Below, one piece after another: positions 2,847 to 24,973 of a stretch of DNA of 42,243 nt (the stretch's first letter is position 1; every line of letters starts with the position of its first letter). The DNA comes from a virus (Duplodnaviria; Caudoviricetes): positions 1 through 42,243 of the IMG/VR virus record IMGVR_UViG_3300044259_000023; one strand, 5' to 3'. The translations under genes were made by a program, and so were the position numbers. The notes below the pieces were generated by a model. That model ran no database searches, was not told the DNA's origin, and worked only from the letters and a program-made list of their open reading frames with translations.

Positions 2847-2981
2847 ATGCCAAAAACCATAACCTGCCCATACTGCGGCACAACAAAAACCGTCCGCGCC
2901 GACGCCGAGACCTGCGGGTCTGGTGTGTGCCGAATGAAGAAGTCACGGGAAGCCAAAAAACAACAGGAGAACAAGAAATGA
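2847..2981 (+). CDS. Small Zn-finger protein (44 aa; not in ORF track)
   Basis: MPKTITCPYCGTTKTVRADAETCGSGVCRMKKSR; upstream AGGAGGG; ATGA overlap with next gene. Confidence 0.65.
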   Translation: MPKTITCPYCGTTKTVRADAETCGSGVCRMKKSREAKKQQENKK

Positions 2982-3910
2982 AAATCAGCAAAAGCAAACG
3001 TCAACTGGCTCAATTGCTCATCGAAGCCGGGGTTAAGCAATTCCCCAACAGGGCAAACTTTGTGGCCCATGATGGTAATGGCGCCGGATTCTACTCTGGC
3101 GGAAAGCCGTACTGGGATTCCAACCATCACGAGTGGGCGTCAAATGCAGAAAATGGAAGTTGCGTTGGCGTCCATACACTCAATGGCCGCATAAAAAACC
3201 ACCATCAGACCGTACTGAGCCGCGCCGAGTTCGACAAGATAGTCGCTGAGGGCGCAGAACATGGCAAGCCTGATGCAGATGGGTGGATTGAGTGGAAAGG
3301 TGGTGAGCGTCCGGTTGATGGTTCCGCATTAGTAGAGGTAAAGCTGCGCAACCCTTCCGCTGGCAATATTGAACGAATCAGAAAAGCTGATGAATTTTGC
3401 TGGAATTCAGGATTTGGTGGTGGTGGAGAAATCATCTCCTATCGCCTGCACAAGCCGGAATCGGCTGAGCCGCAATACTGCGAATCCGTGACGCGCACAA
3501 TCCCCGAGCCGGTCACTGCGCCGACTCTAGATCAGTTGTTGCAGGATTACCGCAACGCCGCAGATTTCGCAGCTACCAAGCAGACAGAGGCGGACGAAGC
3601 TGCCAAGATGCGCGACGAGCGGTGGAAGGATGCGCAAGCGCGAGCCTGTGAGCTTGGTGTGCGCATCAGCGTTGAGCTAGTCGTTGATGCTGAAATTAGC
3701 GAACCTGAGCCGGTGATTACCGATTGGCGGGATGTTAAGCCGGGCGACATTGTGTGGATTGGCGACAGAGTTGATGATCCAGATTGCGATGGCGCTGAAT
3801 ATGAGGTGGAGCGCATTGATGAGCGCGATCAAGGGCAGCCGTTTAAACTTAACGGTGGCTTATGGCCTATGATTAATCGGAGGGGGTGGCGCTTCATCCG
3901 CCGACCGTAA
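2978..3910 (+). CDS. Multi-module phage hypothetical protein (310 aa)
   Basis: RBS AGGAG; contains GWIEWKGGERPV...VEVKLR...IISYRL module seen in many phage proteins. Confidence 0.75.
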   Translation: MKISKSKRQLAQLLIEAGVKQFPNRANFVAHDGNGAGFYSGGKPYWDSNHHEWASNAENGSCVGVHTLNGRIKNHHQTVLSRAEFDKIVAEGAEHGKPDADGWIEWKGGERPVDGSALVEVKLRNPSAGNIERIRKADEFCWNSGFGGGGEIISYRLHKPESAEPQYCESVTRTIPEPVTAPTLDQLLQDYRNAADFAATKQTEADEAAKMRDERWKDAQARACELGVRISVELVVDAEISEPEPVITDWRDVKPGDIVWIGDRVDDPDCDGAEYEVERIDERDQGQPFKLNGGLWPMINRRGWRFIRRP

Positions 3911-3927
3911 CAACAGGAGACAAAATA

Positions 3928-4218
3928 ATGGCAATAACAAAAGATCAAATGTATAGAGCGGCAGAGCAATTCAGCGAGTACAGGAGCAAACCAAAGCCCA
4001 AGTATTGCGCATATGAAGATGCCAAGAAACTCATAGTGTTTATGATGGAGAGAAAACTTCCTCCGTATACGGCGTTTATATTCCTCATGGTGCAAGGTCG
4101 CTTTTTTGAGCCCGACATTTCACTAAGGGATTTTGTGTGCAGATATGAAAATTTTGTGTTCGGCAGCCCTTACCGACGCGACAGGATGGAATATATCCAC
4201 AAGCTACTACATGGATAA
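3928..4218 (+). CDS. Hypothetical protein (AT-rich)
   Basis: RBS AGGAG, 96 aa, ends at terminator. Confidence 0.65.
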   Translation: MAITKDQMYRAAEQFSEYRSKPKPKYCAYEDAKKLIVFMMERKLPPYTAFIFLMVQGRFFEPDISLRDFVCRYENFVFGSPYRRDRMEYIHKLLHG

Positions 4219-8292: not shown

Positions 8293-8340
8293 CGCTATTA
8301 CCGAATACTTAACAGCAAGCCTACCACTTTTCACCAAGCA

Positions 8341-8384
8341 ATAAAAAACCCCAGCGTACACCTTGTAGTGAAGAGGCCAGGGTC
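8341..8384 (-). terminator. Probable intrinsic terminator downstream of the tRNA-like RNA
   Basis: CCCTGG...CTGGGG followed by TTTTTTATT on - strand; stem imperfect. Confidence 0.5.
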
Positions 8385-8469
8385 ATGTTTTATTTTGTAG
8401 CGATACTGCGGTTTCAGTCCGTCGCCTCGAGCTCTCATAACCCATCAGCAGCTTTGGTTTCATTACCGT

Positions 8470-8584
8470 GTGGTGGCCGGTGCTGATCTCCGGCATTCCA
8501 GATTCAGCGCCTATCTGGAAAGATCGAGGGGTAAACCCTTAGCGACTCTGCTCTTCTTCTCGCATCAGCCTGCGCATTCACCAC
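8470..8584 (-). ncRNA. tRNA-shaped structured ncRNA (not a canonical tRNA)
   Basis: GUGGUG/CACCAC closing stem, CGCA/UGCG arm, UUCCAGAU/AUCUGGAA arm, GCCGG/CCGGC arm stacked on the closing stem; extended -10 TGCTAAAAT places +1 at 8584. Confidence 0.7.
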
Positions 8585-8640
8585 GTCAAGATTTTAGCAT
8601 ACCAAGGCGATCATGGTAGAGCCTTTAATGATAGTATCGC

Positions 8641-9587: not shown

Positions 9588-9672
9588 AAACACCTCGTAG
9601 TAGGTGGCGTAGATTGAAGTGGCGCGGCAGTGCAGTCTACGTTCTGCATTTTCGGATGCCTCCTAGCCGCAC
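9588..9672 (-). promoter_or_regulatory. Structured 5' leader of kilA-N (three-way junction plus RBS-sequestering hairpin)
   Basis: TATAAT at 9682-9677; stems GUGCGGC/GCCGCGC, UGCAG/CUGCA and CACCU/AGGUG. Confidence 0.6.
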
Positions 9673-9691
9673 GGTCATTATACAGCGGAAA

Positions 9692-9750
9692 TAAAAAAGC
9701 CCCAACTAGTGGGGCAGGCGAGCGGAGCTGGGAGGCTCTTGTGGAGATTG
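9692..9750 (-). ncRNA. Putative ~58-nt anti-Shine-Dalgarno small RNA (sRNA-A)
   Basis: TTGCCA(9784)-17-GATAAT(9761) promoter; terminator GCCCCA-CTAGT-TGGGGC-TTTTTT; no ORF; three CUCC motifs. Confidence 0.6.
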
Positions 9751-9785
9751 ATCTGATTATCGCCCCGCCAGAGTTAAATGGCAAG

Positions 9786-10106
9786 TCAGTGTAACAACTG
9801 GTCTCCGTCGAATTGCAACTGGGCTATCTCAGCAGGCATCACGCAATGTCCGTAGGCAGCCGACTCGGTGATCGTCCCATCCAGGTTTTTCCACTCGTAG
9901 ACGGCGGCCGGAAGGTTGATTTGCTTTCCATCTCGGCTAACCGCCACTGACACGCCGAACGCGGTCACACATCCATCCTCAGCGATTGTGGCTGGTACCC
10001 GCTCTGACCGCCCGTTGATTGTCACCTCAACGCTGGCGGAGTAGATCCCGACATTGGCTAACCGGTCATCCCATAGCATCAGCGTTTGTCGATTGATGAT
10101 TGGCAT
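9786..10106 (-). CDS. Hypothetical protein
   Basis: 106-aa ORF, RBS GAGG, in operon. Confidence 0.6.
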   Translation of the reverse strand: MPIINRQTLMLWDDRLANVGIYSASVEVTINGRSERVPATIAEDGCVTAFGVSVAVSRDGKQINLPAAVYEWKNLDGTITESAAYGHCVMPAEIAQLQFDGDQLLH

Positions 10107-10112
10107 ATGGCC

Positions 10113-10631
10113 TCACTTTGTCTTTTTGATGCCAGTGCAACCAGAGAATGGCTGTACGTGAATCACGTCATCAACTAACGGCCTGCATGCCTCGATGATT
10201 CGCTCATCATCATCCACAAGCACCAGGCGCCGACCTTCAAGGGCAGCAATGCGACCAATCATGTCGGCCTTGTAGTCTGCTGCTGACCGGTGATCGCTTT
10301 GCTCTCGCATGAGCAGCTGGGCGCACAGTACTTTGTCACACAGGTGCTTGCAGCTAAAAATTTCACGAGAGGCGCGATTCAGTGACACTCGCGTTTCCTG
10401 CTGGCAAATCTCACTTCGCCCGGTAAGAAACAGGATGTGATGGCCGTGGCGCATAAGCTCACCCATTAGCTGCCACATGTGGACAATCGGATAGTCATCG
10501 ATGCAGGCCAGATTGAAAGCATCCCACTGCTCAGTCGTGGAGCCGCACCCAGTCGGCAGCAGGCGCTCCCGGTGGCTGTTGTCCATCAGTGTGCCGTCAA
10601 TGTCCATGATGTAGAGTGTTTGGCTGTTCAA
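10113..10631 (-). CDS. HAD-superfamily phosphatase (resembles the polynucleotide kinase 3'-phosphatase domain)
   Basis: DIDGT motif I, LTGR motif II, LMR..D.R, DD motif IV; TTG start after GAGGAG. Confidence 0.8.
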   Translation of the reverse strand: MNSQTLYIMDIDGTLMDNSHRERLLPTGCGSTTEQWDAFNLACIDDYPIVHMWQLMGELMRHGHHILFLTGRSEICQQETRVSLNRASREIFSCKHLCDKVLCAQLLMREQSDHRSAADYKADMIGRIAALEGRRLVLVDDDERIIEACRPLVDDVIHVQPFSGCTGIKKTK

Positions 10632-12089: not shown

Positions 12090-12250
12090 TCCCAGATCTC
12101 CTTGTGCTTGTTCTCGATTTCCAGCTGCTCGCGCATAACCTCAATCTTGCGTCGAGCTTCCGCGTTGCGGCGATCACGCTCTGACTGGCGATATTCGCGC
12201 TCTACCTTCGGGCGGCGCGGGGCCAAGTATTCGTTGAATGACTCACTCAT
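12086..12250 (-). CDS. Hypothetical protein (54 aa)
   Basis: ATGA-coupled at both ends; track start at 12400 is unlikely. Confidence 0.6.
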   Translation of the reverse strand: MSESFNEYLAPRRPKVEREYRQSERDRRNAEARRKIEVMREQLEIENKHKEIWE

Positions 12251-12372
12251 GCCACCACACTCCCGATGATTGCGATACAGGTCAAGAACGCCAGGAACTT
12301 CACGTCGTCGCCGTGTTTTCGCCACCAGATCTTGAATTGCGATGGCTTTTTGCTGTTTACGTAGTCTTTCAT
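12247..12372 (-). CDS. Small membrane protein (41 aa; not in ORF track)
   Basis: RBS GGGAGG; MKDYVNSKKPSQFKIWWRKHGDDVKFLAFLTCIAIIGSVVA. Confidence 0.6.
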   Translation of the reverse strand: MKDYVNSKKPSQFKIWWRKHGDDVKFLAFLTCIAIIGSVVA

Positions 12373-12399
12373 TCCAACCTCCCAGTTGATTTCGAGACA

Positions 12400-12446: not shown

Positions 12447-12662
12447 TCAGATTCGGCCATCCTGCAACCGCATAATCGACGACTTAAGCCACAGCGCCGG
12501 TATGCCATGCTTCTTGCTCTCTTGCTGAACGCGTTTAGCAACGATTCTGGCGCATTCCTCATGGTTGCCCTTGTGGTTGCCTAGCTCGACCTCTAACTCT
12601 TGCAGCAATCGCTTTGCAAGCGCTCTGGCTGCTAATCGCTCAGTTTCGCTAAGGGCTCTCAT
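12447..12662 (-). CDS. Hypothetical protein
   Basis: 71 aa, ATGA-coupled to upstream gene. Confidence 0.6.
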   Translation of the reverse strand: MRALSETERLAARALAKRLLQELEVELGNHKGNHEECARIVAKRVQQESKKHGIPALWLKSSIMRLQDGRI

Positions 12663-13051
12663 GACATTGCCGCCTCATACTGCGCTTTTGTGCAGCGCTC
12701 CCATGTGAACCCTGCATGGTTAGCTGTCAGACCCTTGGTTGCCCGGTAAACGTTGCTGATGTTGAACCCATTCGCGGCAAGGTGCTTTGTGTTGCAGAAG
12801 TAGTGGCGCTCGCCGGTCGAGATGCTGGTGGCAACAAAGCAGGCATTACCCCAGGCGGCGCGGCGGCGCTCGATGAGCCCCAGGCGCATTGCCTTCTTGA
12901 CAGCCCATTCCACATTTCCGGTTCGCTCGCCGGTGAATGCAGCGATCTGCTTGTTGGTTAATCCTCTCACGCGCATCTCGATGTAGCGCGCCACATGCGG
13001 CCACATCTTGTGGCCGCGGTAATCGACAAATTGTGATGGGTTGTAGTACAT
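12659..13051 (-). CDS. HTH + NUMOD1-like DNA-binding protein (paralog 1)
   Basis: GLTNKQIAAFTG HTH-like segment; C-terminal TGE..F...HAGFTW; RBS GGGAGG. Confidence 0.6.
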   Translation of the reverse strand: MYYNPSQFVDYRGHKMWPHVARYIEMRVRGLTNKQIAAFTGERTGNVEWAVKKAMRLGLIERRRAAWGNACFVATSISTGERHYFCNTKHLAANGFNISNVYRATKGLTANHAGFTWERCTKAQYEAAMS

Positions 13052-13069
13052 GTCACACCTCCCAGTGTT

Positions 13070-14230
13070 TCAGTTTTTTATTGCAGAATCTATGCGGCGA
13101 CCAATCCACGCCATGCATGGAACGGCCATAGAGTTTCCAATCGCCTTGTAGCGAGGGCCGTCTGCTGCTGGTTTGCCGCGATATGACACATCGGTATGAC
13201 CGTCTGGAAACCCCTGCAGGCGCTCGCACTCAATGGGAGTGAGGCGACGAACGGCATTTACAAGCACCGCATTTTCCTGCCCCTGATTGCGGCCCAGCGT
13301 GTGGGCCAGCTCGGTGTTGGTGTCTGGGTCTTGGGTGCCGTGGACGGTCATCACAGCCAGATCGGTAGCATCCTTGTAGTCTCTGGCCTTCATAGTGCTG
13401 GCAGTGCCATCGCAGGCGTATTCACCAAACGCCACCATTCTGAACGCTTCGGCTGGGGTCAAATGTCCTGCTTGTCCTTGGTTGTCGTCTGCACCACACG
13501 TTCCAACGCCGTTTGCAGTAAGGGCGGCAACGACCGAGCCCGTTTCTCTGCTCGGTGGAGTATCCCGGCGCAGGCCTTCGGGCTCAAAAAGTACCGCTGC
13601 GGGATCGAACCCTGCTCGAGCACTTGCGACAACAAACACACGGAGGCGTCGTTGGGCCACTCCGAAATATTGGGCATCGAGGACGCGCCACGCGACTGCT
13701 CTTTTGGGGCCAAGCACACAACCAGCGTTCGACCATTTGTCCCCTGGCGGGACGATCTCGCAATCTTCTCCGGCAAGGAGGCCAAGGAATGAACCAAAAG
13801 CGTTTCCTTTGTCGCTGAGAACTCCGGGGACGTTTTCCCACCAGACGACGCAGGGAACATATCCAGTTGATCCTCTCTTCTCATCAATTTCATCTGCCAG
13901 CTCCACGAATTTGATTGTTAAAAAGCCACGGTCATCAGCCAAACCCTTTCTTGCCCCGGCCACGCTGAAGGCTTGGCACGGTGTGCCGCCGACCAGCACG
14001 TCTGGCGCTGGCACATTGTCATTCGCCACCTGCTCGGCAATCTTGGTCATGTCGCCAAGGTTGGTAACGTGCGGCCAGTGGTGTGCCAGAACCGATGATG
14101 GGAAAGGCTCGATCTCGGCAAACCATGCAGGTTTCCACCCCAGCGGCTCAACCGCAACGCTTGCCGCCTCAATGCCGCTGCACACGCTTCCGTAAGTAAT
14201 GGCTGCCTCTGAATTTGTTTTAGCGCTCAT
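13070..14230 (-). CDS. DNA cytosine-5 methyltransferase
   Basis: SVCSGIEA (I), GGTPCQAFS (IV), WENVPG (VI), Q.R.RVF (VIII), RRLTP.ECERLQGFP (IX), YKAIGNS (X). Confidence 0.95.
   Translation of the reverse strand: MSAKTNSEAAITYGSVCSGIEAASVAVEPLGWKPAWFAEIEPFPSSVLAHHWPHVTNLGDMTKIAEQVANDNVPAPDVLVGGTPCQAFSVAGARKGLADDRGFLTIKFVELADEIDEKRGSTGYVPCVVWWENVPGVLSDKGNAFGSFLGLLAGEDCEIVPPGDKWSNAGCVLGPKRAVAWRVLDAQYFGVAQRRLRVFVVASARAGFDPAAVLFEPEGLRRDTPPSRETGSVVAALTANGVGTCGADDNQGQAGHLTPAEAFRMVAFGEYACDGTASTMKARDYKDATDLAVMTVHGTQDPDTNTELAHTLGRNQGQENAVLVNAVRRLTPIECERLQGFPDGHTDVSYRGKPAADGPRYKAIGNSMAVPCMAWIGRRIDSAIKN
13459..13893 (-). CDS. Nested alternative-frame gene inside the m5C MTase (M.EcoHK31I beta-subunit-like)
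   Basis: Same strand, different frame; GGAG 7 nt before ATG; peptide LLSQVLE...YFLSPKACAGILHRAEKRARSLPPLL. Confidence 0.6.
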   Translation of the reverse strand: MKLMRREDQLDMFPASSGGKTSPEFSATKETLLVHSLASLPEKIARSSRQGTNGRTLVVCLAPKEQSRGASSMPNISEWPNDASVCLLSQVLEQGSIPQRYFLSPKACAGILHRAEKRARSLPPLLQTALERVVQTTTKDKQDI

Positions 14231-14589
14231 AATTCCACCTTAATCCAATGAAACCCGCCGTGTGTGCCGCCAGTTGATGCGGCTCTGCGCACTGAACGTG
14301 GGCTAAACCCTGCGCCGTCAATGGCTCGCTCACCGGTAAAAACGAATTGCTCTCCTGTTGCGCGGCTGGTGGCCCGGTACTTCGCTGCGCCGAACCCGGC
14401 TCGACGGCGAGTGATCGCTCCGCGCTGGATGTACCGCGAGTTGATGGCGCTAACAGTCCCTAGGCTAACGCCCATCCATGCCGCTATCTGGCGGATCATG
14501 ATTCCGCGATTGCGCATAGCGATCACCATTTCGGTTGATGGGAGCATCACGCCATTTTCGGTGCTGACGAAATCACTTTTTTTGTGCAT
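14227..14589 (-). CDS. HTH + NUMOD1-like DNA-binding protein (paralog 2)
   Basis: Aligns end to end with 12659-13051 (MR.RG....QIAA..G...G.V; RRRA..G.A; ATS..TGE; H.GF.W). Confidence 0.6.
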   Translation of the reverse strand: MHKKSDFVSTENGVMLPSTEMVIAMRNRGIMIRQIAAWMGVSLGTVSAINSRYIQRGAITRRRAGFGAAKYRATSRATGEQFVFTGERAIDGAGFSPRSVRRAASTGGTHGGFHWIKVEL

Positions 14590-15160
14590 TGCTCTCTCTC
14601 CACTTGTTCACTCCGATAGCTAGGCTCTCCAGGCTCTTTCCGCTTTCCGCCTTCTTCTCGCTCAGCTCGATTCGCCCCGGTAGTGATGCCGGCAGTGCTT
14701 CAAGCGGTGTGCGTTCGAAGGTCTCATACATCCTGATGAACTCTTTGCGCTTCCATTCCATCTTGGCGCTCTCTGTCTGGCAGAGTGACTGCCATCCCCC
14801 CAGCGCTTTGACGGCTGCCAGCGCCTGCTTGTCGTCAAGCTTGAGAGTGCCATAACTCCCGATACGGCGAATGTCGCGCTCGATGCAGGCCCATGCCATG
14901 GCGGCCCGATCTTCGATTGCCGCCTCCTGCTGCTTTGTTGTTCCGGCGATCTGCTTGATAAGGTCGGCGGGCTTCGGGAAAAACTGGCCGGTATCCGTGT
15001 TCTGCATGTGGGCCATCATTGCCGCCCGGGCTTGCTCGATGGTCATCATCGACAGGGCAGCAAAGTAGATTTGCAGCAGGGGGCCGGTTATCTCTTTGCC
15101 GTACACCTCGCCAGCGGCCATCATGGCGCGCTCGAAAGCTGGTTTGTCTTGCTCCTGCAT
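14573..15160 (-). CDS. Replication-associated protein (DUF6475-like; probable helicase loader)
   Basis: GQFFPKPADLI, GSY..L.LDD, LGGW..LC, EFIRMY; directly downstream of initiator. Confidence 0.7.
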   Translation of the reverse strand: MQEQDKPAFERAMMAAGEVYGKEITGPLLQIYFAALSMMTIEQARAAMMAHMQNTDTGQFFPKPADLIKQIAGTTKQQEAAIEDRAAMAWACIERDIRRIGSYGTLKLDDKQALAAVKALGGWQSLCQTESAKMEWKRKEFIRMYETFERTPLEALPASLPGRIELSEKKAESGKSLESLAIGVNKWRESNAQKK

Positions 15161-18494: not shown

Positions 18495-18704
18495 TTATTT
18501 ACGCTCGAGCCAGCCAGTCAGCACGTTAGCATCGCTCATGTAGATGAGCATCTCAATGCTGGCGATTGCCGATGCGGTCGGTTTGTTCTCGCCACCCTCC
18601 CACTTCTGATAGGTCTTTACGCAGGTTAGGCCTAGCGCATTAGCCATCTCGCTCTGAGAGAGGCCCAGCGAGTGCCGGGCCTGCTTGATTTGATCTGTGG
18701 TCAT
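18495..18704 (-). CDS. XRE-family HTH regulator
   Basis: IKQARHSLGLSQSEMANALG...TYQKWEGGENKP. Confidence 0.85.
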   Translation of the reverse strand: MTTDQIKQARHSLGLSQSEMANALGLTCVKTYQKWEGGENKPTASAIASIEMLIYMSDANVLTGWLERK

Positions 18705-18892
18705 GCGCTTACCTCTGCACTAGCCATGAATTCTTGATAGGCCGAATATTCAGCTGAGCAAGCTGCTCTATAATCAGCCCAAGCGGTGGAGTAGGCATAC
18801 TCAACACCAGGAAGATCGAGCGATGCCTTCCACGCCTTCAGTGTGGCATCAACTACTTCGCAAGCCGCCAACCATTTTTGTTTTGCGTTCAT
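18701..18892 (-). CDS. Hypothetical protein (63 aa)
   Basis: GTGGAG RBS favours ATG 18892 over the track start at 18907. Confidence 0.6.
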   Translation of the reverse strand: MNAKQKWLAACEVVDATLKAWKASLDLPGVEYAYSTAWADYRAACSAEYSAYQEFMASAEVSA

Positions 18893-18939
18893 TTTGTTTA
18901 TCTCCACTTGGCTTGGCCCCGCGCCTCACCGTTGAGATA

Positions 18940-18993
18940 ACTATACCCCAGCGGGTCATGACCCGCAAGGTCTTTTGTGTGATATTTATCACA
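18940..18993 (-). promoter_or_regulatory. Promoter with perfect 16-bp operator palindrome and consensus CRP-type box
   Basis: TTGCGG-17-TATAGT; GCGGGTCATGACCCGC at 18951-18966; TGTGA-N6-TCACA at 18978-18993. Confidence 0.7.
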
Positions 18994-19024: not shown

Positions 19025-19195
19025 TTATCGCTTCTTTGGTAGTGGTGCCCACATCATGTGGATGCGATCTTGGCTGATGCCATGCTCCTTTCCAGTCTCG
19101 TCTATGATGCGAGCGATTCCGTCTTTAACCTCTGCAATCCTAGCCTTGAGTACCTGGCCGCGAGGCTTCATGATGCTGTAGTGTGTCCAGTCCAT
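19025..19195 (-). CDS. Hypothetical protein
   Basis: 56 aa, coupled to upstream stop. Confidence 0.55.
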   Translation of the reverse strand: MDWTHYSIMKPRGQVLKARIAEVKDGIARIIDETGKEHGISQDRIHMMWAPLPKKR

Positions 19196-22790: not shown

Positions 22791-22970
22791 ATGTTGCTCA
22801 CAGTAAAACAGGTGTGCGAGAAGCTAGGGGTTAGCCGTTCCACTCTATTCCTTATGCGGAAAAATGAAGGATTCCCGACTCCGTATTGTTTATCAGAGTC
22901 GGCGCAGCGGTGGAGCGAGCAGGAAGTGGATGAGTGGGTTAAATCCCGCAAGGTGGAGAGACAAAAATGA
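22791..22970 (+). CDS. AlpA/excisionase-like HTH protein (59 aa; not in track)
   Basis: MLLTVKQVCEKLGVSRSTL...GFPTP...RWSEQEVDEW; ATGA-coupled to recT. Confidence 0.8.
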   Translation: MLLTVKQVCEKLGVSRSTLFLMRKNEGFPTPYCLSESAQRWSEQEVDEWVKSRKVERQK

Positions 22971-24650: not shown

Positions 24651-24823
24651 TGTGCGCCATCACTGGATATTACCGTGCAACATCAAGGGCCGACGCGCTG
24701 CGCTGGCTCCTTGATAACAGATTCAGCAACATCAACGGGCACTGGATGGATGGGCAGAATCGGTTTGCCATCATCGAGAAGCTGCCTAGTGGCAGGTTGA
24801 TAGTTAAGATTGGGGTTGCGTGA
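24650..24823 (+). CDS. Hypothetical protein (57 aa; not in track)
   Basis: TGATG-coupled to upstream gene. Confidence 0.5.
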   Translation: MCAITGYYRATSRADALRWLLDNRFSNINGHWMDGQNRFAIIEKLPSGRLIVKIGVA

Positions 24824-24850
24824 TTACTTACCGCTGAGATATATTTGTTC

Positions 24851-24927
24851 CATTAAGTCCAGTTGTTGTTGCTTCTGCTGTCTCCTCCTGTGACATTTTA
24901 AAGCCCCTCGCTTGAGGGGCTTTTTTT
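24851..24927 (+). ncRNA. Putative ~75-nt anti-Shine-Dalgarno small RNA (sRNA-B) ending in a strong terminator
   Basis: TTGCGT-18-TATATT upstream; body AGUUGUUGUU...UGUCUCCUCCUGU; terminator AAAGCCCCTC-GCTT-GAGGGGCTTTTTTT. Confidence 0.55.
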
Positions 24928-24973
24928 GTGGGTTGTGGGATGCGCTTAACCGATCTATCCAACTCACCCTAGG

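What the first reader, a model, noticed from the sequence alone, without database searches (positions are those of the whole stretch)
9692..9784. sRNA-A: stand-alone ~58-nt RNA whose seeds match RBSs of the phage's own early genes
Seen: promoter TTGCCA-17-GATAAT and terminator GCCCCA/TGGGGC-U6 bracket the ORF-less sequence ...AAUCUCCACAAGAGCCUCCCAGCUCCGCUCG.... Seed CCUCCCAG is centred on the loop of the GAGC/GCUC hairpin. It is the exact complement of CUGGGAGG in the RBSs of the genes starting at 13051 (site 13058-13065) and 12372 (site 12378-12385). The adjacent seed (A)UCUCCAC is complementary to GUGGAGA(U) in the RBSs of the genes starting at 18892 (18900-18907, 8 nt), 14589 (14597-14603) and recT (22953-22959). 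Each of the two HTH-NUMOD paralogs is matched by a different seed. Inference: a multi-seed trans-acting repressor that shuts off early/middle translation in a phage with no CI. Caveat: 7-8 nt anti-SD matches can arise by chance.
Basis: partly seen in the sequence, partly recalled or inferred. Interest (0 to 1): 0.72.

Follow-up and report, generated by a model that had tools for sequence, protein, structure and literature searches.

The report
Phage small RNA with anti-RBS seeds
A phage related to Aeromonas phages carries a 57-base stretch between a promoter-like site and a terminator that is unchanged in a relative whose neighbouring DNA has diverged; its short C/U-rich words are complementary to the ribosome-binding sites of a few early phage genes, so it likely encodes a small RNA that would damp their translation, although neither the RNA nor its effect has been observed.

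Summary
In detail: the promoter, the terminator and all five seed matches are at the stated places. The element looks like a real RNA gene. In a relative about 8% diverged, 9693-9748 has 0 of 56 differences, while the promoter spacer is replaced and the -10 box kept. Two further homologues exist (G003, G011). They share the 5' AUCUCC, a GCUCGC box and the terminator, and show CCUCCC(AG) in the terminator loop instead.

Targets are less certain. In-register matches of 7 nt or more number 7 in 37 early and 0 in 36 other start regions (P=0.002 for early, 0.06 overall). Against this, one of those sites is lost in the strain with the identical RNA. Matches are not own-genome-specific, and host targets could not be tested.

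Verdict: likely a modular, trans-acting anti-RBS sRNA tuning a subset of early genes, not a general CI substitute. It resembles Burkholderia double-hairpin RNAs and c4 but belongs to neither.

The parts
9779..9784 (-). -35 hexamer TTGCCA, one base after the stop of the 106-aa gene
   Evidence: TTGACA and TTGACG at the same distance in G003 and G011
9756..9761 (-). -10 hexamer GATAAT
   Evidence: kept in X7 and X8 contigs whose spacer is replaced (table 7) and in G011
9692..9748 (-). predicted 57-nt small RNA (sRNA-A)
   Evidence: 0 of 56 differences over 9693-9748 in the X7 contig versus 231 of 2,851 in its flanking coding pieces; transcript not observed
9741..9748 (-). 5' single-stranded seed AUCUCCAC (AUCUCC shared with G003 and G011)
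9728..9735 (-). loop seed CCUCCCAG in the 4-bp hairpin 9738-9725; in G011 the same 8-mer sits in the terminator loop
9718..9723 (-). GCUCGC box just before the terminator, shared with G003 and G011
   Evidence: G011 was found with a pattern containing this box; G003 was not
9693..9715 (-). intrinsic terminator hairpin and U6 tail; probably also ends the long early operon
12378..12385 (-). candidate target: RBS of the 41-aa small protein gene 12247-12372; 8 nt perfect, 10 bp with G-U; best-supported target
13058..13065 (-). candidate target: RBS of HTH gene 12659-13051; match lost in strain X7
   Evidence: against: table 7
18900..18907 (-). candidate target: RBS of the 63-aa gene 18701-18892; the homologous leader in phage 56 has AC where the window has GT before GGAGAT
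14597..14603 (-). candidate target (7 nt): RBS of HTH paralog 14227-14589
22953..22959 (+). candidate target (7 nt): RBS of recT; recT RBSs in G003, 4_4512, 56 and G004 lack the word
9786..10631 (-). upstream module that travels with the RNA: PNKP/HAD phosphatase gene and 106-aa gene; both precede the homologue in G011 (59% aa identity for the 106-aa protein)

Best explanation
The stretch 9748-9692 likely encodes a 57-nt small RNA, predicted to be made from its own sigma-70 promoter, whose two exposed C/U-rich seeds would pair with the Shine-Dalgarno regions of a subset of the phage's early mRNAs and block ribosome loading. Shown: the promoter and terminator motifs, invariance of exactly the RNA span, homologues with the same scaffold and moved or swapped seeds, and enrichment of matches in early start regions. 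Inferred: transcription, Hfq use (U6 tail only), repression, and timing (a stable RNA accumulating alongside its targets would cap early expression after a first pulse). The best-supported target is the 41-aa small-protein gene at 12372. The RNA would tune particular genes rather than switch off the whole early region.
For: (1) X7 contig: 0 of 56 differences in the RNA versus 8.1% in flanking genes (P=0.009); 9749-9828 is replaced by 79 other letters, yet GATAAT and the 17-nt spacing are kept. (2) A second pair, G003 (myovirus) and G011 (BPP-1-like virion gene), is identical over 39 nt from the same first base while the promoters differ. G011 is syntenic with the window. Its pre-terminator part resembles sRNA-A more than shuffles do (P=0.003). 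(3) CCUCCCAG is loop-displayed in both the window and G011, in different hairpins; neither the fetch of G003 nor the pattern that found G011 contained the seed. (4) In-register matches of 7 nt or more: 7 in 37 early and 0 in 36 other start regions, null means 2.0 and 1.2, P(early)=0.002. CTGGGAGG is in 2 of 79 window start regions and 0 of 767 in 11 other phage records; GTGGAGA is in 3 of 79 versus 3 of 767. (5) The G011 terminator hairpin's top two matches among 846 start regions are the window's 12372 (12 nt) and 13051 (10 nt) RBSs. G003 and G011 also match the RBS of the 12372 homologue in 2_D05 and 4_D05 through a different 9-nt word (top 1%). (6) The G011 RNA has a 13-nt perfect complement 29 nt before one of its own early genes. 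The G003 RNA has a 12-nt complement covering SD-to-AUG of its own gene at 19168.
Against: In strain X7 the homologous RBS of the 13051 gene reads UUUUGAGG instead of CUGGGAGG while the RNA is identical (table 7). The total match count is not significant once the anti-SD cores are fixed (P=0.18-0.21; 0.06). Only 3 of 36 genome-wide complements of 8 nt or more lie in start regions (P=0.10). Duplex energies of the named sites rank only in the top 5-37% of 8,444 windows, and the sites are predicted only 25-50% unpaired. The RNA-by-genome matrix is not diagonal: cousins' genes match as well as or better than own genes. The phage 56 B-type RNA carries CCUCCCAGC, but no start region of phage 56 has CTGGGAGG. 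2_D05 and 4_D05 have no A-type RNA. The early regions of G003 and G011 are mostly missing, so own-genome covariation of the loop seed was not testable.
Confidence: 0.55

Rival explanations
1. The RNA is real and pairs with RBSs, but its main targets are host (probably Aeromonas) mRNAs: a broad anti-Shine-Dalgarno repressor that reroutes host translation, like Burkholderia NcS27 or lambda PreS. The phage matches would be by-products.
For: The CCUCCCAG seed recurs in RNAs of genomes with no own CTGGGAGG start region (phage 56). The X7 RNA is invariant although a phage site is lost. In E. coli K-12, used only as a proxy, GTGGAGA-N4-11-ATG occurs 64 times (reversed control 35), so seed 1 would find tens of host sites. 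The architecture resembles RF02278 RNAs (PMC5688073 passages).
Against: CTGGGAGG-N4-10-ATG occurs only 4 times in the whole E. coli genome but twice in this 42-kb phage. Host targeting does not explain the early-versus-late bias or the recurring match to the 12372 gene family.
Confidence: 0.22
2. The RNA is an interference weapon against co-infecting related phages: its seeds read the RBS vocabulary shared by this phage group's early genes, and own matches are tolerated or incidental.
For: Best matches are often in cousins. G011 matches the window RBS at 12 nt versus the window RNA's 8 nt. G003 and G011 match 2_D05 and 4_D05 leaders. The window's second RNA matches G001, G002 and G003 genes at 11 nt versus 8 nt at home. 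c4 determines P1/P7 heteroimmunity (PMC12197685 section 7).
Against: The window's seed words are enriched in its own start regions relative to 767 others. G003 and G011 have 12-13-nt matches in their own genomes. Mosaic exchange of modules would also give an off-diagonal matrix.
Confidence: 0.1
3. The RNA works as a sponge for host sRNAs or Hfq (AgvB-like, or pairing with GGA loops of Csr-type RNAs) rather than on mRNAs.
For: Short RNA with a U tail and several complements of GGA words (sequence). Known phage precedents AgvB, AsxR and VpdS (PMC12197685 passages).
Against: No Rfam match to such RNAs for sRNA-A; G003 scores only 15.3 bits on AgvB, gathering score 56. It does not explain the RBS-register matches.
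Confidence: 0.06
4. There is no functional RNA: the stretch is a 3' UTR plus terminator whose identity between strains reflects recent recombination or a DNA-level role.
For: These phages are mosaic. The internal hairpin is weak (z -1.8). Promoter-like sites are as common in shuffles.
Against: In two separate pairs of genomes the conserved block starts at the predicted first base while the promoter spacer drifts and the -10 box is kept. The seed is loop-displayed in two different hairpins.
Confidence: 0.07

Closest known systems
Burkholderia double-hairpin 'toxic' sRNAs, Rfam RF02278 (ncS03, ncS05, ncS27, ncS62; PMC5688073, PMC4603805 and PMC10987360, passages read)
   Same: Three of the four are 57-67 nt (ncS27 is 92 nt and is processed to a similar length). 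They consist almost wholly of two hairpins, with CU-rich unpaired stretches complementary to RBSs; the model consensus begins UGUCUCCUCC.
   Different: They are chromosomal and betaproteobacterial, with predicted host metabolic targets. sRNA-A has no match to the model; the G003 RNA scores 25.3 bits and the window's second RNA 28.8 bits, gathering score 50. Works-like, not a member.
c4 antisense RNA of P1/P7 (PMC12197685 section 7 read; RNase P processing and cloverleaf fold recalled)
   Same: Phage RNA with short loop-displayed sequences that pairs near an RBS of the phage's own mRNA and blocks translation.
   Different: c4 controls the linked antirepressor operon of a temperate phage. sRNA-A stays when the downstream KilA-N cassette is replaced, has no Rfam C4 match, and its candidate targets are scattered over three early operons of a CI-less phage.
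VpdS (VP882) and PreS/LPR1 (lambda) (review PMC12197685 parts 1-2 and passages; bioRxiv 10.1101/2024.10.31.621285 passages; VpdS primary paper not seen)
   Same: Phage-encoded, trans-acting, multi-target sRNAs; VpdS is reported to regulate host and phage mRNAs.
   Different: No sequence similarity was tested or found through Rfam. PreS partners are mainly host mRNAs. Neither is described, in what I read, as a scaffold with exchangeable anti-RBS seeds.

Membership tests
RF02278 double-hairpin / toxic sRNA | Covariance-model score at or above 50 bits | tested here: not met
   No hit for sRNA-A at E<=10; G003 25.3 bits
RF02278 double-hairpin / toxic sRNA | About 60 nt, two hairpins, CU-rich anti-RBS stretches in unpaired regions | tested here: met
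   in G003 and G011 only the terminator hairpin is predicted
RF02278 double-hairpin / toxic sRNA | Growth inhibition on expression | not testable with these tools
   needs a bench test
c4 antisense RNA | Match to the Rfam C4 models | tested here: not met
c4 antisense RNA | Co-transcribed with, and complementary to, the downstream antirepressor mRNA | tested here: not met
   A 9-of-10 match to the KilA-N leader exists only in the window's variant; X3, X5 and X8 leaders differ there, and other downstream contexts occur (table 7)
trans-acting Hfq-type sRNA | Own promoter and intrinsic terminator with U tail, conserved beyond flanks | tested here: met
   (motifs and conservation; no transcript data)
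trans-acting Hfq-type sRNA | Seed pairing to mRNAs encoded elsewhere | tested here: inconclusive
   for; against:
trans-acting Hfq-type sRNA | Expression as a discrete RNA and Hfq binding | not testable with these tools
   no RNA holder listed; only contigs were available
cis-antisense phage RNAs (sar, OOP, aQ) | Overlaps its target gene on the opposite strand | tested here: not met
   the only opposite-strand frame is shifted by one base in X7 and X8

The most novel reading that the evidence does not exclude
CI-less Popoff/Kunming-like phages use a family of modular RNAs: a fixed promoter-AUCUCC-GCUCGC-terminator scaffold whose seeds are swapped, or moved between hairpin loops, to follow the RBS words of their early genes. 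This RNA-only circuit would pulse-limit potentially harmful early proteins such as the 41-aa membrane-type protein (acting as a distant RNA antitoxin) and could silence the same genes in co-infecting relatives.
Probability: 0.3. Interest if true: 0.82.

Novelty: new variant of a known kind. Interest (0 to 1): 0.64.

Why it matters
How phages without CI or their own polymerase turn down strong sigma-70 early genes is poorly mapped, and characterised phage sRNAs come mostly from temperate phages. A seed that moves between hairpins and changes with RBS words would be a clear case of natural sRNA re-targeting. It is directly testable because cultured relatives (56, 2_D05, 4_D05) carry related stand-alone units, and fusions need only short leaders.

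Tried and rejected
Searches for close copies that found nothing: exact 22-mer in IMG/VR, 0 hits. GenBank phages: only the downstream leader and terminator matched; nothing for the G011 element. Plasmids: 2 short weak hits. Metagenome pattern scan: 61 of 61 hits judged chance, none with window homology. Genome scan: 1 hit, judged chance. Neighbour-protein scans of IMG/VR found no loci.

Pattern scans that gave little: one search gave 15 hits, none counted; the G006 family looks similar but is an unrelated phage found by a seed-containing pattern. One search gave 19 hits: G003 again, one look-alike (L238, not analysed further) and 17 others, of which the largest group is an RBS on the opposite strand. 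One search gave 58 hits: G003, G011 and 56 unrelated.

Expression: no RNA holder listed. Runs labelled RNA are contigs and may be DNA, so they were used only as strain variants.

Rejected readings: antisense to the KilA-N leader; an opposite-strand peptide; a promoter serving KilA-N (it has its own TATAAT at 9681-9676, kept in L105 and 4_4512); a Csr sponge (no GGA on the RNA strand); one strong unique target (whole-genome duplex scan).

No Aeromonas chromosome could be reached, so host targets were not tested; E. coli served only as a background proxy.

Literature: 10 full-text searches returned no report of this RNA. Kimelman 2012 was not held. Supplements of PMC12197685 (38 further phage sRNAs) and PMC5737381 (int-alpA) were not read and could bear on novelty.

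Full report
Setting. The window is a 97%-complete virus record of a contractile-tailed phage. Its terminase is 93% identical to that of Aeromonas phage 2_D05, and it shares long blocks with 2_D05, 4_D05, 56 and 4_4512. Two relatives of the gene upstream of the element are filed under an Aeromonadaceae MAG, so an Aeromonas host is inferred. No S24-type CI and no tyrosine integrase were found in 0 of 4 records tested, the window included. Two short HTH genes, an AlpA-like gene, an Ant/Rha gene and a KilA-N gene are present. The element closes the long minus-strand early operon, directly after a PNKP/HAD gene and a 106-aa gene.

Observation. The predicted RNA has a single-stranded 5' end (AUCUCCAC), a 4-bp hairpin whose loop carries CCUCCCAG, a GCUCGC box and the terminator. 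Rfam has no match at gathering level in the window and none of note for the RNA itself at E<=10.

Is it a real RNA gene? Contigs of related strains were laid on the region (runs X3, X7, X8, X9; X3, X5, X7, X8). An 8,350-nt contig of X7 differs at 231 of 2,851 positions in five flanking coding pieces but at 0 of 56 over 9693-9748 (P=0.009). The next 80 bases are replaced by 79 other letters that still give GATAAT, six bases before the RNA and 17 bases after a position ending in A (table 7). X8 holds both promoter types. No difference inside 9693-9748 is listed for any of the four runs. The table omits differences near piece ends, so only X7 is a direct count, and four of the five differences in one X5 piece could not be placed. 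X3 shows two other sequences beyond the terminator, so the RNA does not depend on the KilA-N cassette.

Homologues. A promoter-to-terminator scan of 10 genomes found the window's unit and six more: five longer B-type units (2_D05, 4_D05, 56, G001, G002) and one A-type unit in G003. It found none in 4_4512, KLEA5 or G004. A pattern for the GCUCGC box plus terminator (58 hits, 56 unrelated) returned G003 again and G011. In G011 the unit follows homologues of the PNKP gene and the 106-aa gene (59% identity), although its virion gene is BPP-1-like. G003 and G011 are identical over 39 nt from the same first base while their promoter spacers differ. Compared with the window they keep AUCUCC, GCUCGC and the terminator arms, carry a different G/U-rich middle, and show CCUCCC (G003) or ACCUCCCAG (G011) in the terminator loop. 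The loop seed has therefore been kept but moved. This is the strongest sign that exposed pairing sequence is the function.

What does it pair with? Results in favour. With start codons from one automatic caller (7 doubtful calls dropped, 1 added), 8 of 37 early and 0 of 36 late or opposite-strand genes have a perfect complement of 7 nt or more (Fisher 0.005; P=0.006 for the contrast with cores fixed). Counting only matches in register with GGAGA or GGAGG gives 7 versus 0, against null means of 2.0 and 1.2 (P=0.002 for early). CTGGGAGG is in 2 of 79 window start regions and 0 of 767 in 11 other records; GTGGAGA is in 3 of 79 versus 3 of 767. The G011 terminator hairpin, found without using the seed, has its two best matches among 846 start regions at the window's 12372 (12 nt) and 13051 (10 nt) genes. 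The 12372 gene encodes a 41-aa protein with a hydrophobic C-terminus, with homologues in 2_D05, 4_D05, 4_4512 and KLEA5. G003 and G011 match the leader of the 2_D05 and 4_D05 homologue through another word (9 nt, top 1%; the two leaders are identical and count once), but only 6-7 nt in 4_4512 and KLEA5. In their own genomes G011 has a 13-nt match before an early gene, and G003 has a 12-nt match over SD-to-AUG of an opposite-strand gene in the head region. The leader of gene 18892 is homologous to that of phage 56 gp71 and differs at the two bases before GGAGAT that the window's 5' seed reads; this is a single case.

Results against. The overall count is not significant once the anti-SD cores are fixed (P=0.18-0.21; 0.06). 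Only 3 of 36 genome-wide complements of 8 nt or more are in start regions (P=0.10). Duplex energies are ordinary and the sites are partly paired in their mRNAs. In X7 the homologous RBS of the 13051 gene has lost the match while the RNA is unchanged (table 7). Across 9 RNAs and 8 genomes the best matches to the opposite-strand head-region genes are often in cousins, and sRNA-A has none there. Phage 56 carries CCUCCCAGC in its B-type RNA without any CTGGGAGG start region. recT leaders of four relatives lack the word. In E. coli, a proxy only, the loop-seed word before ATG is rare (4) but the 5'-seed word is common (64, control 35), so host sites could titrate the RNA or be its real targets.

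Mechanism. Shown: motifs, conservation, modular seeds, early-gene bias. Inferred: a sigma-70 transcript of 57 nt, probably Hfq-bound through its U tail (established behaviour of such sRNAs, from my own knowledge), nucleates on SD regions through the 5' end or the loop and occludes the ribosome. Made from the start of infection and more stable than its targets, it would cap expression of a few early proteins. I put the RNA being real at about 0.9, RBS pairing at about 0.8, own early genes as relevant targets at 0.55, host targets mainly at 0.22 and rival phages at 0.10.

Comparison. It works like the Burkholderia double-hairpin RNAs (RF02278), which are mostly about 60 nt with CU-rich anti-RBS stretches and slow growth when NcS27 is overexpressed (PMC5688073 passages). 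It fails that model. It resembles c4 in loop-mediated RBS pairing on phage mRNA (PMC12197685 section 7) but is not tied to an antirepressor operon. VpdS and PreS are trans-acting phage precedents. Ten literature searches found no description of this RNA. The paper on 2_D05 and 4_D05 has no occurrence of 'small RNA' (PMC6669705 passages). Papers seen: PMC12197685 parts 1-2 of 6, section 7 and passages; passages of the PreS preprint, PMC6669705, PMC5737381, PMC4603805, PMC5688073 and PMC10987360; no supplements. Earlier notes of this scan describe similar anti-RBS RNAs in other phages. They are unchecked and were not used as support, but they suggest the kind recurs.

Verdict. A very probably real, undescribed family of phage small RNAs with exchangeable anti-RBS seeds. 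New variant of a known kind; interest 0.64.

Noticed in passing
window 24818-24930 (+): Second stand-alone ORF-less unit ending the recT operon, C/U- and G/U-rich. It scores 28.8 bits on RF02278, and 7 of its 54 complements of 8 nt or more lie in start regions (P=0.001). Longer counterparts with repeated UCCUGUUG-type words sit at the same place in 2_D05, 4_D05, 56, G001 and G002; their opposite strand can also be read as short Gln-rich peptides.
   Followed up: partly
window 9607-9673 (-): int-alpA-like structured leader (RF02996, 33.9 bits, gathering 35.8) before the KilA-N gene. Similar leaders precede mobile cassettes in 4_4512 (one sits between two pieces annotated as methylase) and KLEA5.
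   Followed up: partly
window 8340-8640 (-): Non-coding leader before terS with two blocks (8467-8496, 8558-8584) conserved in many phages around a variable insert of about 65 nt; no Rfam match. Possible undescribed structured RNA.
   Followed up: partly
window 2847-4218 (+): Opposite-strand genes inside the head operon with A/C-rich RBSs; the same arrangement in 7 relatives, where B-type and G003 RNAs match these leaders at 9-12 nt.
   Followed up: partly
window 18495-18970 (-): Two-gene unit (63 aa plus 69-aa HTH_3) with its own promoter-like site over a palindrome at 18951-18966; leader homologous to phage 56 gp71. Toxin-antitoxin-like layout, untested.
   Followed up: no
L238:10001-10067 (G012) and L090:1790-1890 (G006): Unrelated phages with strong promoter, AUCUCC-containing ORF-less stretch and terminator; found by patterns containing those words, so not independent evidence.
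   Followed up: no
L247:9157-9189 and about 30 similar loci: A recurring structured element of about 120 nt ending in a terminator in 50-110 kb phage contigs; not examined.
   Followed up: no
L220:19168-19888 (G003): The homologue of the window's 310-aa gene 2978-3910 is split over two frames.
   Followed up: no
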